Below are positions 1 through 3,555 of a stretch of 64,000 nt of DNA, piece after piece; position 1 is the first letter of the stretch, and every line of letters begins with the position of its first letter. The notes below the pieces were generated by a model. The model was not told the DNA's origin, did no database searches, and saw only the letters and a list, made by a program, of their open reading frames with translations. The position numbers and the translations under genes were made by a program. Origin of the DNA: an uncultured Candidatus Saccharibacteria bacterium (GTDB lineage Bacteria > Patescibacteriota > Dojkabacteria > J137); the NCBI GenBank assembly GCA_964414295.1, contig CAYPVU010000020.1, forward strand, positions 43,289-107,288. The letters are read 5' to 3'.

Positions 1-1
1 C

Positions 2-2128
2 GAAGTTAAAGATATTTCTGCTAGATTCAAATTTTCTTCAGGTGGAGAAACTTATTACTTGAATTACCCTCAAGATGAAAATAATGCAGAGTTTACGCAG
101 TTTGCTGTGTTTGACGGTAAATCAGTAATCATACATCTAGATGAGCGTAATAAATTTGAATTTAAACCTGTTAGTTTAGAGTTCTTTAGTTCTCTTACAG
201 CCGCCTATAAAAAGATTGAAATTAAATTAGATGATGATATACAAAGCAGGCAAGTAAGAAAAGAATACGCAGCATTATTTGATGGTGATTCAAAAATTAA
301 AGAAGTAATTAACAACCTTTCTTCCGATACAAATATCCAAGAATTAAATAAACTACTTCCTGTGGGAGAAGTAGATACTAGGTTGAAAGAATTAGAAGAG
401 AAAAAAGCTCAGTTAATAGTATTGAAAAAGGATAAAGAAATTACATCGCTAACTGAAATTCAAACTTTACTAAGAGCTCTTAAAGAAAGTATTGAAGAAA
501 ATAATAAATACTTTCTTCAAGATACCATAAAGGAAGTAAAAGATAGAATTACCAACTATATAGAAAAATTAGCATTAGCAAACAAGGAAGGAATAACGAA
601 TCTACAAACAGATAAATTAAAGGCTGTAGGAACTGCCGAATGGAAGGCATTCATAGAAAGTGCAGAGAAAGTGGCTATACAGGAAGGTGATAATTATCCT
701 TTAGAAGATTCTATTTGCATTTTTTGTCATCAGCCATTGAAGGAAGATAGTCACTCACTTATCCATGATTATTGGAAATATCTAAAAAGCAAATCCGAGC
801 AGGATAAGAAAGATGCCAAAGAGAAGCTAGATAAAGCTATTGGTGCATACAATAGATTAGCTTGGAATTTAATGTCTGATGAAAGTATATTAAAGAAGTG
901 GTTGAAGGATAATTACGAAAAAGAAGCTGTAAAATTAGAAGAGGACATCTCTAGTCAAAAAGAATTATCAGATTTAATACTATTAGATTTAAAGGATTTA
1001 AATTTAGAGGAAAGAAGGGAGTCTTTAGTTGAAACATCAGATATAGATACAATAGAAAGAAATATAGAAGAGCAAATTAATAAACTTAAACTACAGGAGC
1101 CGACAAAAGAATTAGAATCAGTAAATCAATCAATTACTTTATTAAACCATCAGCAGAAGCTATCGCAACATATATCAACTATTATTGAATATATAAACAA
1201 TTTGAAATGGGCAGAAAAAGCGACACAGTGTAAAAGAAAATTGTTGACTACTAAAGTTACTAATAAAGAAAAGGAGCTTTCAGATAAGTTTTTTAATCAA
1301 GATTACTTAGAAGCTTTCAATGGCGAGTGTATGAGTATGGAGTGCAATTTTGGAGTAGAAATTAATCATACAGGTGTAGCGGGAACATCCTATCGACAGC
1401 TACGACTAAAGGGACATAACCCTTCTGCAATCCTTAGTGAAGGTGAACAAAAGGTTATTTCTCTTGCAGACTTCTTATCAGAAACTAAATTGTCTCAAGG
1501 CAATAAAGGTATTATTTTTGATGACCCTGTTAATTCGCTTGATGAGGAAAGAAAAAGCATTATCGCAAATAGGTTAGTTAATGAAAGTAAAACTCGACAG
1601 GTCATAGTGTTTACTCATGATTTAGTATTTGTCTCCTCTCTTATATCAGCATGTGAAGAAAACAACACAACTACAACTTGTCATTGGATTGAAAAAATCG
1701 ATGGAAAACCTGGGAAAATATGGTTAGATAATGCCCCTAGTTTGGAAAAAACTTACAGGAAGTCAGGTAAAGCATGGGACTTTTACAACAAAGCGAAAGA
1801 TGCATCGGGTCCAGAAGAAAGAGAAATTCATATAAAAAGTGGCTTTGCTTCATTAAGAACTAGTTATGAAACACTAGTTATATTTGATTTATTTAAGGGA
1901 GTTGTACAGAGATTTAATGAACGGGTTAGTATTATGAGCTTAAAGGATGTGACGTTTTCTGAAGAAATGAAAAATGAAATAATTAGTAGTTTTGAAAAAT
2001 GTTGTAGTTACATGGAAGGTCATTCTCATAGCGATAAATATACCTATACCAAGCCCTCTTTAGATGATTTGAAAAATGAGATAGAGGTATTTGATAAGCT
2101 AAAAGGTAAATTGAAAACAAAAGATTAG
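2..2128 (+). CDS. 5'-truncated SMC/Rad50-like ABC ATPase with a coiled-coil CxxC zinc-hook insertion and a ~180-aa C-terminal domain (RloC-like candidate). The N-terminal Walker A lobe lies outside the window.
   Basis: The frame is open from position 2 with no upstream stop, so the ORF-track Met at 59 is not the true start. Long heptad-like coiled-coil flanks CIFCHQP (CxxC at nt 716-727). The ABC signature LSEGEQ (~1434-1451), Walker B IIFDDPVNSLD, a D-loop and the H-loop FTHD are present. A C-terminal domain follows with GHSHSDKY. Confidence 0.55.
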   Translation, partial: EVKDISARFKFSSGGETYYLNYPQDENNAEFTQFAVFDGKSVIIHLDERNKFEFKPVSLEFFSSLTAAYKKIEIKLDDDIQSRQVRKEYAALFDGDSKIKEVINNLSSDTNIQELNKLLPVGEVDTRLKELEEKKAQLIVLKKDKEITSLTEIQTLLRALKESIEENNKYFLQDTIKEVKDRITNYIEKLALANKEGITNLQTDKLKAVGTAEWKAFIESAEKVAIQEGDNYPLEDSICIFCHQPLKEDSHSLIHDYWKYLKSKSEQDKKDAKEKLDKAIGAYNRLAWNLMSDESILKKWLKDNYEKEAVKLEEDISSQKELSDLILLDLKDLNLEERRESLVETSDIDTIERNIEEQINKLKLQEPTKELESVNQSITLLNHQQKLSQHISTIIEYINNLKWAEKATQCKRKLLTTKVTNKEKELSDKFFNQDYLEAFNGECMSMECNFGVEINHTGVAGTSYRQLRLKGHNPSAILSEGEQKVISLADFLSETKLSQGNKGIIFDDPVNSLDEERKSIIANRLVNESKTRQVIVFTHDLVFVSSLISACEENNTTTTCHWIEKIDGKPGKIWLDNAPSLEKTYRKSGKAWDFYNKAKDASGPEEREIHIKSGFASLRTSYETLVIFDLFKGVVQRFNERVSIMSLKDVTFSEEMKNEIISSFEKCCSYMEGHSHSDKYTYTKPSLDDLKNEIEVFDKLKGKLKTKD

Positions 2129-2131
2129 AAC

Positions 2132-2160
2132 AAGAGGAGATGGTTTAATCATCTCCTCTT
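2132..2160. terminator. bidirectional intrinsic terminator hairpin between convergent genes
   Basis: Perfect 11-bp inverted repeat AAGAGGAGATG / CATCTCCTCTT with a 7-nt loop, and T-rich tracts on both sides. Confidence 0.6.
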
Positions 2161-2174
2161 AATCTGTTAAATTT

Positions 2175-2747
2175 TTATTTCAGAGCTCCTTGCATTAAAT
2201 CTAACATTTCCTTTTGCTCAGTAGCTTTATATTTAGGAGATACTCTTAGAAGAACATTTCCTATGATACGATGTTCACCAGGATTAAGGAATCCTGAATT
2301 CTTTTGAAAAGATGATAAGTAAGTACTTCTACTTTGCGCGTCTTCTTCTGTAGCAAAAACTTCTACTGTTCCTCCAGCATCAGTTCCATAATCATTTGAA
2401 GTAGAGTAGTCCATCCCGTCTTGGTTTGTTCTTGTATCATAAAATGCACCTGCATATTGATATTGTCCATTTTTCCCGAGCATATTATTACTATCGGTAT
2501 CTTCAGTGTATATCCTTGTCTTTTCTACAGTAGGCACTTCTGACTTTACTTTATCTAAAATAGATTGAACTAACTCATTACCTATTAACTTTGACTTTGA
2601 TGCATTGTTGGTATTGTCTGTAAATGATTCATTTACAGAAGGAGAATTGTCTGCACTGTCAGACTGATTCTGTAGAAGAATGACTCCTCCTATTATAGCT
2701 ATTGCCAGCACTACTACAGCACCTATCACGAAGCCCTTGGTCTTCAT
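2175..2747 (-). CDS. hypothetical signal-anchored/secreted protein
   Basis: N-terminal hydrophobic segment FVIGAVVVLAIAIIGGVILL, then an N/S/T/D-rich soluble region. No recognisable motifs. Confidence 0.5.
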   Translation of the reverse strand: MKTKGFVIGAVVVLAIAIIGGVILLQNQSDSADNSPSVNESFTDNTNNASKSKLIGNELVQSILDKVKSEVPTVEKTRIYTEDTDSNNMLGKNGQYQYAGAFYDTRTNQDGMDYSTSNDYGTDAGGTVEVFATEEDAQSRSTYLSSFQKNSGFLNPGEHRIIGNVLLRVSPKYKATEQKEMLDLMQGALK

Positions 2748-3555
2748 ATAGAGAAAGATAAAAAATAGAATTTACAAGATTACTGGCTGAGTTATTCAAA
2801 GCTTTAAAAGCAAAGATGGCCCAACGCCAGCTAAGTCTTGCGACTTACTATCAGGGTTTCCCCAGATAGACCAAGGGTAGGACTGGACATTGAGCCGTCA
2901 TCATACCCTTGGATTTTGTTACGAAACCATGCTCATATTTTTAATATGAGTTTAGGTCTCAGATAGGAGAATTATAATCTATGAAGACATAAGCTTCAAC
3001 AGATGATAAAAAAGATTATTCAGTATATGTTAAATTCAAAAATTACTATGCTATCTGAGGTAAAGATAGTTAGGGCATTAAAAATAGAATATAAACGTAA
3101 GCTACTGCCATAGCCATATTTTAAATTCTGATTAGCCTATGGAACAATGTTAATAAGGAATCGAAGTAACAGCAAGGATAGTTAATTCCTTGAGTTTAAT
3201 AGGATAAATTCCTATATTTCTAATATAAAAATAGATTTACTTAAACAAGTATTGTTATGAGCCTCAGAATAATGAAAATAGTATGAAACTGAAGTATAAT
3301 ACAGTCTATAGAACTGTAGGGATTATATTTAGAAAATTAGATTAGATATCTACATTAGTTAAAGCAAGTAATTTACTTACTGTATTCAAAAAATGGTCAG
3401 GATATTTAATGATTTTTAACCAGTCTGTCGTTCGAAAATCGTCCCAGACAGTCAGTTTTTAAAACTAATTTATGAATCAAAAATGGGATTCCCCTTGGGG
3501 GAAAACACTTACACACTAATTAATATTAAAGTAATACTTAAATTAGTAACTTTTT

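What the first reader, a model, noticed from the sequence alone, without database searches (positions are those of the whole stretch)
2..2128. 5'-truncated Rad50/RloC-like ABC ATPase with a coiled-coil CxxC zinc hook and an extra C-terminal domain (candidate defence nuclease)
The C-lobe of an ABC ATPase (LSEGEQ signature, IIFDDP Walker B, FTHD H-loop) is preceded by about 350 aa of coiled coil. The coiled coil is interrupted by CIFCHQP, which matches the Rad50/SbcC zinc-hook topology. The protein is far too short to be SbcC and carries a ~180-aa non-ATPase C-terminal domain.

This layout, an ABC head with an internal zinc-hook coiled coil and a C-terminal effector, matches RloC-type anticodon nucleases and related abortive-infection ATPases. 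The N-terminal Walker A lobe and any partner genes lie upstream of the window.
Basis: partly seen in the sequence, partly recalled or inferred. Interest (0 to 1): 0.6.

Follow-up and report, generated by a model that had tools for sequence, protein, structure and literature searches.

The report
RloC-like zinc-hook ATPase defence gene
The window opens inside a gene for an 849-residue Rad50-like ATPase with a zinc hook and a small C-terminal domain that looks like an RNase; it belongs to the RloC-like candidate anti-phage family that PADLOC already catalogues as PDC-S06, and it sits on a mobile island next to a restriction-modification system, so it is a good call but not a new kind of system.

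Summary
An identical contig (L123) supplies the missing 141 residues, including Walker A. It also shows the upstream genes: HTH, C5-methyltransferase, a split HpaII endonuclease, Vsr, a 109-aa ORF, then this gene, with a serine recombinase at the far end of the contig.

The full protein matches PADLOC PDC-S06 end to end (E = 5e-136). A published RloC orthologue from a Shewanella plasmid hits other models of the same PDC-S06 set. It also shares the hook motif (CxFCQQ) and the ABC C-lobe with this family (hhalign 98.9%). An AlphaFold model resembles Rad50 and SMC proteins.

The C-terminal ~135 residues form a helical bundle. Arg-x3-Glu and His are invariant in 215-216 of 216 relatives, which fits the RloC triad pattern. 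An Rx4H motif is kept in 89% of relatives, but the window protein has Ser in place of that Arg. Homology of this domain to RloC or HEPN domains was not statistically supported. No partner gene is conserved.

Verdict: a divergent RloC-like abortive-infection ATPase, a new member of a known kind. RNase activity is inferred, not shown.

The parts
2..2128 (+). 3' 83% of the gene: residues 142-849 of an 849-aa RloC-like / PDC-S06 ABC ATPase, stop codon included
   Evidence: Open frame. PADLOC PDLC04891 E=7e-108 for the fragment and 4.7e-136 for the full length. Full length recovered from the identical contig L123.
2..169 (+). End of ABC lobe I; Walker A lies 25-33 residues upstream of the window edge
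   Evidence: AlphaFold model of P0001 (79% identical), strands and helices up to residue 190. Walker A GGNGSGKTG seen in L005 and L123.
170..1336 (+). Helical (coiled-coil-type) insert of about 390 aa that splits the ABC head
   Evidence: 76% helix in the AlphaFold model. Foldseek best matches are Rad50, SMC, MukB, LmuB, JetC and RecN with their coiled coils.
716..727 (+). CxxC zinc-hook motif (C239, C242; C380/C383 in full-length numbering), within C-I-F-C-H-Q-P
   Evidence: Invariant in 42 of 42 relatives; C..C.Q in 119 of 120. The ANA-3-type RloC HMM aligns its 'CPfCqqk' to the family's 'CLFCQQKL'. PDLC04898 and PDLC04886 cover this region in both families.
1358..1723 (+). ABC lobe II: signature LSEGEQ (1433-1450), Walker B IIFDDP (1511-1528), D-loop SLD, H-loop FTHD (1610-1621), then two further strands
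   Evidence: hhalign probability 98.9%, E=2.9e-17 against the ANA-3-type RloC profile over this region. Rad50 chains are the best sequence matches in the PDB.
1733..2125 (+). C-terminal helical domain of about 135 aa, candidate HEPN/ACNase-like RNase
   Evidence: AlphaFold pLDDT 83, helices 18-28, 33-59, 83-97 and 116-135 with a conserved insert between. No Pfam or PDB sequence hit. Foldseek gives nothing significant; the best match is the Csx1-Crn2 HEPN chain at E=0.46, and five other HEPN-type entries are in the top 41.
1856..1870 (+). R619-T-S-Y-E623 (R760/E764 in full length): Arg-x3-Glu
   Evidence: R in 216 of 216, Y in 215, E in 215 of 216 full-length relatives. Matches the Arg-X3-Glu half of the RloC/PrrC triad pattern (PMC2610378).
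1910..1924 (+). [quoted passage not shown]
   Evidence: R637 in 215 of 216, E640 in 194 (+12 D), R641 in 203. In the permissive hhalign path it lines up with RloC 'RRIlE', not significant.
2006..2035 (+). S669-Y-M-E-G-H674-S-H676-S-D678: the family's Rx4H-x-H-x-D motif, with Ser in place of the Arg in this protein
   Evidence: H674 in 216 of 216, H676 in 208, D678 in 210. Position 669 is R in 192 and K in 8, S in the window and G in P0001.

Best explanation
The window starts 141 codons into a gene for an 849-residue protein of the RloC-like group, which PADLOC calls candidate system PDC-S06.

Shown by the analysis:
- A Rad50/SMC-type ABC ATPase head is split by a helical insert of about 390 residues that carries an invariant CxxC hook.
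- A ~135-residue helical domain follows, with invariant Arg-x3-Glu and His.
- The gene is a single-gene module with no conserved partner.
- It is scattered across phyla, and here it sits on a ~10-kb serine-recombinase island directly downstream of an HpaII-type R-M + Vsr cassette.

Inferred by analogy with Geobacillus and Acinetobacter RloC:
- Two protomers join through the zinc hook and their ATPase heads.
- The heads sense DNA ends or damage that arise during phage attack or failed restriction.
- ATP hydrolysis then releases the C-terminal domains, which act as a metal-independent HEPN-type RNase.
- That RNase cuts tRNA anticodon loops or other RNA, stops translation and aborts the infection.
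For: Family assignment:
- PADLOC PDC-S06 PDLC04891 E=4.7e-136 over residues 8-848.
- The Table-S1 RloC orthologue from the Shewanella ANA-3 plasmid hits PDC-S06 models (2.9e-266), PrrC (1.6e-13) and AAA_13 positions 1-713.
- Models PDLC04886, 04895 and 04898 are hit by both proteins.
- hhalign gives 98.9% between the two families over the ABC C-lobe.
- The RloC HMM aligns from the hook (CPfCqq vs CLFCQQ) to the H-loop.
- IMG names C-terminal fragments of the family 'wobble nucleotide-excising tRNase'.

Structure:
- The full-length AlphaFold model (pLDDT 84) matches Rad50, SMC, MukB, LmuB and JetC.

Effector domain:
- R619, E623 and H674 are invariant in 215-216 of 216 relatives. The spacing is R-x3-E-x50-H (x52 to H676), inside the published RloC range of x36-52.
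- Rx4H is kept in 89% of relatives.

Context:
- The gene lies downstream of M.C5, R.HpaII and Vsr, with a serine recombinase on the same contig.
- In 69 related loci no partner is conserved. A Type III mod gene lies directly downstream in 9 loci, an XRE HTH upstream in 8, and integrases, Dcm, HNH, YhcG and HD-CE/HATPase genes are nearby.
- Only 356 of 185,579 species genomes carry a relative found through the two conserved peptides.
Against: - The C-domain has no significant profile or fold match to an ACNase or HEPN domain. hhalign against the ANA-3-type RloC C-domain gives probability 1.6%, P=0.03. The reciprocal HMM searches (RloC C-domain HMM against the family proteins, family C-domain HMM against the RloC proteins) gave no significant match to either C-domain. 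Foldseek against PDB and BFVD gives E>0.2. Pfam finds nothing.
- The Pfam AAA_13 alignment stops at model position 616 of 713 in this protein.
- The Arg of Rx4H is Ser in this protein, which could weaken or abolish an HEPN-type site.
- H-x-H-x-D could instead be a metal site.
- No member of this sub-family has been tested, and the papers that mention PDC-S06 report no experimental validation of it.
- Which Arg/Glu pair corresponds to the RloC triad is ambiguous (R619/E623 or R637/E640).
Confidence: 0.6

Rival explanations
1. The protein is a Rad50-like, zinc-hook defence ATPase of the same superfamily, but its C-terminal domain is not an anticodon or HEPN RNase. It could be a His-His-Asp metal-binding nuclease or phosphoesterase acting on DNA or nucleotides, or a non-catalytic sensor or oligomerisation domain, with toxicity coming from something else.
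For: E-G-H-x-H-x-D is conserved at 88-100%, and two Cys precede it in about two thirds of members. The Rx4H Arg is dispensable in 16 of 216 members, this one included. There is no significant sequence or fold link to any HEPN or ACNase domain.
Against: R-x3-E and His are invariant with RloC-like spacing. The fold is all-helical with HEPN-like helix order, and HEPN entries are enriched among the weak Foldseek matches. The rest of the protein is homologous to RloC-type proteins that do carry an ACNase domain in the same position. One divergent member (P0306) aligns to AAA_13 up to model position 704 of 713.
Confidence: 0.25
2. This particular copy is a decaying or silenced gene. The catalytic Arg of Rx4H has been lost, population variants are frameshifted at the hook, and the neighbouring HpaII endonuclease is split, so the island's toxic functions are being inactivated.
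For: S669 replaces the Arg, a single-base change from AGR. Two independent assemblies (L004, L005) carry a 1-nt deletion in the T6 run inside the CIFC codons, which splits the gene into 328- and 463-aa ORFs. R.HpaII is called as 108- and 253-aa pieces.
Against: The window and L123 carry an intact 849-codon frame with every other invariant residue preserved. The closest relative, P0001 (79% identical), also lacks the Arg (Gly) yet is intact, which suggests a tolerated clade-specific state. Homopolymer indels in short-read assemblies can be errors.
Confidence: 0.1
3. It is a housekeeping DNA-repair or chromosome-maintenance ATPase (an SbcC, Rad50, RecN or SMC paralogue).
For: The best PDB sequence and fold matches are Rad50 and SMC heads. 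Pfam SMC_N and AAA_23 give weak hits.
Against: There is no SbcD/Mre11 or kleisin partner next to it here or in 69 related loci. The distribution is patchy (356 of 185,579 species genomes). The gene lies on a recombinase island with R-M genes. It has an extra C-terminal domain, and it matches defence-candidate HMMs far better (E=1e-136 against 1e-9 or weaker).
Confidence: 0.03

Closest known systems
RloC (wobble-nucleotide-excising anticodon nuclease; Geobacillus kaustophilus and Acinetobacter baylyi proteins characterised; Pfam AAA_13, COG4694)
   Same: - The order of parts is the same: ABC head, coiled-coil insert with CxxC hook, C-terminal ~130-aa helical domain with Arg-x3-Glu...His.
- Hook sequence is C-x-F-C-Q-Q.
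- Size (849 aa) falls within the published range of 658-897 aa.
- It is a stand-alone gene, occasionally R-M-linked, on mobile DNA.
- PADLOC places both in the same candidate system.
   Different: - This family has an extra N-terminal helical extension with an LPYWAKYL motif; Walker A sits at ~109-117, against 31-38 in the ANA-3 protein.
- The C-domain is not detectably homologous at profile level.
- It lacks the RloC-type 'W-I-N-x-G-S-H' and terminal 'HYNMMMGE' motifs and has 'R-Y-[IM]-E-G-H-x-H-S-D' instead.
- AAA_13 covers only model positions 244-616.
- Activity is untested.
PADLOC PDC-S06 (single-gene phage-defence candidate, models PDLC04886-04898)
   Same: There is an end-to-end match to PDLC04891, 04893 and 04888, so the gene is a member by the database's own criterion.
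   Different: PDC-S06 is a computational candidate. No validation was found in the papers that mention it. The set lumps several sub-families, including canonical RloC-type proteins.
PrrC anticodon nuclease
   Same: It has an ABC-type NTPase followed by a C-terminal HEPN-class RNase with an Arg-Glu-His triad, and it is linked to an R-M system.
   Different: PrrC is about 400 aa with no coiled-coil or hook, and it is always embedded in a type Ic hsd locus. The PADLOC PrrC model is hit by the ANA-3 RloC orthologue (1.6e-13) but not by this protein at E<=0.01. Here the neighbour is a type II HpaII-like system.
Other ABC-HEPN fusions catalogued by Anantharaman et al. 2013 (APECO1_4465 and ERFG_01251 families)
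   Same: They pair an ABC ATPase with a C-terminal HEPN domain carrying a canonical Rx4-6H motif, on mobile islands.
   Different: Identity with either family could not be tested because no sequences were available. The HEPN/Toprim-NTD1 of ERFG_01251 is about 240 aa and alpha+beta, unlike the three-helix N-terminal region here.
Rad50 / SbcC
   Same: The head fold, the coiled-coil insert and the apical CxxC zinc-hook logic are shared, and these are the best structural matches.
   Different: This protein has no Mre11/SbcD partner, shorter arms (about 170-200 residues each), an additional C-terminal effector domain and a defence-island context.

Membership tests
RloC (Davidov & Kaufmann 2008 screening criteria) | ABC ATPase motifs: Walker A, signature, Walker B/D-loop, H-loop | tested here: met
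   LSEGEQ, IIFDDP..SLD and FTHD lie in the window. GGNGSGKTG is recovered from the identical contigs L005 and L123.
RloC (Davidov & Kaufmann 2008 screening criteria) | Coiled-coil insert with a CxxC zinc hook between Walker A and the signature motif | tested here: met
   The CxxC is invariant. The insert is 389 aa and 76% helical. The hook region aligns to the RloC-type HMM and to shared PDC-S06 models. Zinc binding itself was not tested.
RloC (Davidov & Kaufmann 2008 screening criteria) | C-proximal Arg-X3-Glu-X36-52-His triad, with Ser often before His | tested here: met
   The pattern is R619-x3-E623-x50-H674, or x52 to H676, which is preceded by Ser. R, E and H674 are invariant in 215-216 of 216 relatives.
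RloC (homology of the effector domain) | C-domain homologous to the ACNase domain of recognised RloC proteins | tested here: inconclusive
   hhalign against the ANA-3-type C-domain profile gives probability 1.6%, P=0.03. The reciprocal HMM searches gave no significant match to either C-domain. AAA_13 stops at 616 of 713 in this protein but reaches 704 of 713 in the divergent member P0306. Four motifs are collinear only in the permissive alignment.
RloC (function) | Zn- and ATP/DNA-regulated excision of the tRNA wobble nucleotide | not testable with these tools
   This needs biochemistry. Only the published data for the Geobacillus and Acinetobacter proteins exist.
PADLOC PDC-S06 | Full-length match to one of the system's HMMs, as a single gene | tested here: met
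   PDLC04891 E=4.7e-136, residues 8-848 against model positions 5-856 of 858. No conserved partner in 69 loci.
HEPN superfamily | Rx4-6H motif between helix 3 and helix 4 of a four-helix, two-hairpin domain of about 100-130 aa | tested here: inconclusive
PrrC | About 400-aa ABC NTPase without a coiled coil, embedded in a type Ic hsd locus | tested here: not met
   The protein is 849 aa with a hook insert. The neighbour is a type II HpaII-like R-M system. The PADLOC PrrC model is not hit.
Rad50/SbcC-Mre11/SbcD | Adjacent or conserved Mre11/SbcD nuclease partner, and no effector domain after lobe II | tested here: not met
   The upstream genes are the HTH, M.C5, R.HpaII, Vsr and the 109-aa ORF. 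No phosphoesterase partner cluster appears in 69 loci. An extra ~135-aa C-domain is present.
Lamassu LmuB / PARIS AriA / Septu PtuA | Strong match to the family HMM plus the cognate partner gene (LmuA/C, AriB, PtuB) | tested here: not met
   Only weak head-domain hits were found (LmuB 4.9e-9, AriA 4.8e-6, PtuA 9e-6). No such partners appear nearby.

The most novel reading that the evidence does not exclude
This large sub-family has 717 clusters at 50% identity, an extra N-terminal helical region and an R-x4-H-x-H-x-D helical C-domain that no profile links to any ACNase. It may not be an anticodon nuclease at all. It could be a separate Rad50-like, zinc-hook abortive-infection enzyme with a different effector chemistry or target. 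Here it would be wired in one operon with a type II R-M + Vsr cassette, so that breaks or nicks made or left by restriction trigger it.
Probability: 0.25. Interest if true: 0.55.

Novelty: new member of a known kind. Interest (0 to 1): 0.3.

Why it matters
The gene shows that the RloC design (a DNA-damage-sensing Rad50-like head and zinc hook controlling a suicidal RNase) extends to a populous, untested sub-family. That sub-family is spread across Bacteroidota, Proteobacteria, Firmicutes and Patescibacteria-type genomes. In this case it rides on a small serine-recombinase island together with a type II R-M system and Vsr.

If the RNase inference holds, the island is a compact two-layer defence: restriction first, translation shut-off second. 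The natural Arg-to-Ser change in the Rx4H motif would then tell which residues the active site really needs.

It does not open a new class of system. PADLOC already flags the family, and the mechanism is borrowed from characterised RloC proteins.

Tried and rejected
- Pfam, NCBIfam and PHROGs on the C-domain or the whole protein gave nothing beyond AAA_13, SMC_N and generic ABC hits.
- PDB sequence search with the C-domain profile returned only chance hits.
- Foldseek of the C-domain against PDB and BFVD found nothing with E<0.2.
- The word-indexed protein search with the C-domain profile returned only fragments of the same family. The exhaustive representative search found the same fixed architecture in nearly all of the 150 proteins listed; the weaker hits were not shown.
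- I tried to fetch Geobacillus RloC by searching with sequence read by OCR from the 2008 supplement. It found nothing and used the last homology search.
- The HEPN paper's supplement holds no sequences.
- The genome-contig scan returned 80 close relatives, none from the organisms in the 2008 Table S1. So I could not show that the 860-870-aa 'RloC orthologues' listed there are this sub-family.
- A distant blastn search of E. coli genomes with the Citrobacter member found no match.
- The reciprocal HMM searches (RloC C-domain HMM against the family proteins, family C-domain HMM against the RloC proteins) gave no significant match to either C-domain.
- The SbcC/RecN reading was rejected on context and architecture.
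- Identity with the ERFG_01251 family was considered but could not be tested.
Full report
**1. The observation**

Translating window 2-2128 in frame gives 708 codons with no stop before 2126-2128. The frame runs off the 5' edge. The first in-frame start listed is an internal TTG at 59, so the gene is truncated by the window. All the quoted motifs are present:
- CIFCHQP at nt 716-736
- LSEGEQ at 1433-1450
- IIFDDP at 1511-1528
- FTHD at 1610-1621

**2. Recovering the missing part**

Looking up the neighbouring 190-aa protein (window 2175-2747, minus strand) returned contig L123 from run SRR8581213.
- L123 is 100% identical to window 1-3482 and continues 7.1 kb further upstream.
- It gives a complete 849-aa ORF. 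The window starts at residue 142, and the 708 shared residues show no mismatch.
- The missing part carries Walker A, GGNGSGKTG, also seen in the 99.9%-identical contigs L004 and L005.

**3. Family**

*This protein.* The fragment matches Pfam AAA_13 only over model positions 244-616 of 713 (E=1e-15). It matches PADLOC PDC-S06 model PDLC04891 almost end to end. The full-length protein gives E=4.7e-136 over residues 8-848.

*Size and spread of the family.*
- Homologues are 850-880 aa and come from Vibrio, Methylomonas, Sporosarcina, Lactococcus, many Bacteroidota and a Patescibacteria MAG.
- A profile of the C-terminal domain finds 717 clusters at 50% identity. Nearly all of the 150 listed proteins have the same architecture.
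- A scan of one genome per species found 356 relatives among 185,579 genomes through two conserved peptides.
- This patchy, cross-phylum spread is typical of mobile defence genes.

**4. Is it RloC-like?**

*What defines RloC.* Davidov and Kaufmann (PMC2610378) screened for three things: ABC motifs, a CxxC hook in a coiled-coil insert, and a C-proximal Arg-X3-Glu-X36-52-His triad. Their orthologues were 658-897 aa and mostly not linked to R-M systems.

*A published orthologue for comparison.* No RloC sequence was to hand. I therefore took entry 60 of their Table S1, a 746-aa protein on Shewanella sp. ANA-3 plasmid 1, from the plasmid record (L092:12256-14496, minus strand).
- It matches AAA_13 over the whole model (1-713, E=4e-178).
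- It hits PADLOC PDC-S06 models (PDLC04890 E=3e-266) and, more weakly, PrrC (1.6e-13).
- So PDC-S06 is, at least in part, the RloC-like group.
- Models PDLC04886, 04895 and 04898 are hit by both proteins.

*Direct comparison of the two families.* I collected 18 ANA-3-type relatives from metagenomes.
- hhalign gives 98.9% probability (E=3e-17) between the two families over the signature, Walker B and H-loop region.
- The ANA-3-type HMM aligns continuously from the hook to the H-loop of this family. It pairs its 'CPfCqqk' with 'CLFCQQKL'.
- IMG labels C-terminal fragments of the family 'wobble nucleotide-excising tRNase'.

**5. Structure**

The AlphaFold model of the 79%-identical P0001 (851 aa, 82-sequence alignment, pLDDT 84) shows these parts:
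- a three-helix N-terminal region (residues 5-48)
- ABC lobe I (78-190)
- a 389-residue insert that is 76% helical, with the CxxC at 379-382
- lobe II (593-714)
- a helical C-domain (721-846)

Foldseek against the PDB returns Rad50 (Mre11-Rad50-Nbs1), cohesin and condensin SMC heads, MukB, LmuB, JetC, RecN and SbcC. By sequence, Rad50 heads are the best PDB matches. I could not inspect coordinates. The antiparallel packing of the arms and the apical position of the hook are therefore inferred from these matches, not measured.

**6. The C-terminal domain**

*Fold.* Modelled alone (pLDDT 83), it has helices at 18-28, 33-59, 83-97 and 116-135. A conserved non-helical segment lies between the second and third helices.

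*Conservation in 216 full-length relatives.*
- R619 216/216, Y622 215, E623 215
- R637 215, R641 203
- H674 216/216, H676 208, D678 210
- R619-x3-E623-x50-H674 (x52 to H676, which follows a Ser) fits the published triad pattern.
- Position 669 gives R-x4-H with H674 and is Arg in 192 and Lys in 8 of 216. This protein has Ser there, and P0001 has Gly.

*Fit to HEPN.* Anantharaman et al. (PMC3710099) describe HEPN domains as two alpha-hairpins with a conserved insert between helices 2 and 3 and an Rx4-6H motif. They place PrrC and RloC in that superfamily, and they note families in which the Arg is replaced. The domain fits that description.

*No statistical support.*
- Pfam and PDB sequence searches find nothing.
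- Foldseek is not significant, although the top PDB match is the Csx1-Crn2 HEPN chain (E=0.46, probability 0.87), and 1ufb, 2hsb, 4nqf, 1wty and 8yuf also appear.
- hhalign against the ANA-3-type C-domain gives probability 1.6%.
- In the permissive alignment four motifs are collinear: SYE-L, R-x-x-E, C-R...S-H...D and the last helix.
- One divergent member (P0306) aligns to AAA_13 up to model position 704.

I therefore treat 'HEPN/ACNase-like RNase' as the most likely reading, not as shown.

**7. Context**

Upstream of the gene on L123, and on the same strand, lie these genes:
- an HTH_17/MerR protein (74 aa)
- a C5 DNA methyltransferase (344 aa)
- an HpaII-type endonuclease called in two pieces (108 + 253 aa)
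- Vsr (138 aa)
- an unassigned 109-aa ORF
- then this gene

The gaps run from -20 to +21 nt, so these genes could form one operon. A large serine recombinase (532 aa) sits at the far end of the contig.

L123 ends at window 3482. The next contig from the same run (L122) starts at window 3453. The ~10.6-kb element is thus bounded by assembly breaks. That fits an island present in only part of the population.

The closest homologue (L001) also lies beside a serine recombinase.

In 69 related loci no neighbour family occurs in more than 9:
- a Type III mod methylase directly downstream in 9 loci, with a res gene in 5
- an XRE HTH directly upstream in 8
- integrases, Dcm, HNH, YhcG and HD-CE/HATPase genes elsewhere

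The protein therefore works alone. It sits in defence and mobile contexts, with R-M linkage in a minority of loci, as reported for RloC.

**8. Mechanism**

Shown:
- the architecture
- the conservation pattern
- homology of the head and hook to RloC-type proteins
- the island context

Inferred from the published work on Geobacillus and Acinetobacter RloC:
- dimerisation through the zinc hook
- control of the C-terminal nuclease by a DNA-dependent ATPase
- activation by DNA breaks
- cleavage of tRNA anticodon loops
- translation arrest that aborts infection

The Ser at the Rx4H Arg, and the choice between R619/E623 and R637/E640 as the triad pair, remain open.

**9. Verdict**

- The gene is a new, divergent member of a known kind. 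PADLOC already flags the family, and the RloC paradigm explains it.
- Its sub-family is untested, and its effector domain is not yet tied to any solved or characterised nuclease.
- Interest is modest.

Noticed in passing
window 720-725 (T6 run inside the CIFC codons); L004 near 969, L005 near 988: Two independent assemblies of the same sequence (runs SRR12997672 and SRR12997673) have T5 instead of T6 exactly at the zinc-hook codons. This splits the gene into 328- and 463-aa ORFs. The window and L123 have the intact T6. It could be a real inactivating or phase-variable allele, or a homopolymer assembly error.
   Followed up: partly
window 2832-2958 (-): Rfam LOOT RNA (RF03000) matches above its gathering score (55 bits against 46.4, E=3.5e-9, full model 1-121). 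It lies in the 800-nt gene-free gap, just upstream of and on the same strand as the 190-aa membrane-anchored ORF at 2175-2747.
   Followed up: no
L123 4662-5736 (upstream of the window, same strand as the gene): The HpaII-type restriction endonuclease is split into a 108-aa piece (Pfam model 1-104) and a 253-aa piece (model 107-359) that overlap by 14 nt near a T5 run. The cognate C5 methyltransferase and Vsr are intact. This may be a frameshifted, inactivated restriction gene.
   Followed up: partly
window 3453-3482: In run SRR8581213 the assembly breaks here. Contig L123 (the island) ends at 3482 and contig L122 (AspRS onwards) starts at 3453. L123's other end lies 18 nt past the serine recombinase gene. 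This suggests an island boundary or attachment site in the gap before AspRS.
   Followed up: partly
window 2006-2008 (codon AGT, S669): The Arg of the family's Rx4H motif is Ser here and Gly in the 79%-identical P0001. It is Arg or Lys in 200 of 216 relatives. AGT is one base away from the Arg codons AGA and AGG.
   Followed up: yes
L123 3904 back to about 3650 (residues 1-85 of the full-length protein); P0001 residues 5-48: The family has an N-terminal helical extension with a conserved LPYWAKYL motif before ABC lobe I. The ANA-3 RloC orthologue lacks it. No Pfam, PHROGs or PADLOC sub-domain match was found, and its role is unknown.
   Followed up: partly
L067 10587-12215 and 14668-17181, and eight other loci among L009-L088: In 9 of 69 related loci a Type III R-M mod methylase (N6_N4_Mtase) starts a few bases after the gene's stop, and a ResIII helicase-nuclease follows in 5. 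In 8 loci a ~100-130-aa XRE-type HTH gene lies immediately upstream; in L019 it overlaps the gene's start.
   Followed up: partly
window 2128-2257 (-): There is a sub-threshold Rfam match to FuFi-1 RNA (28 bits against a gathering score of 59.6, E=9e-4). It overlaps the 3' end of the 190-aa ORF and the gap after the ATPase stop codon. It is probably chance.
   Followed up: no
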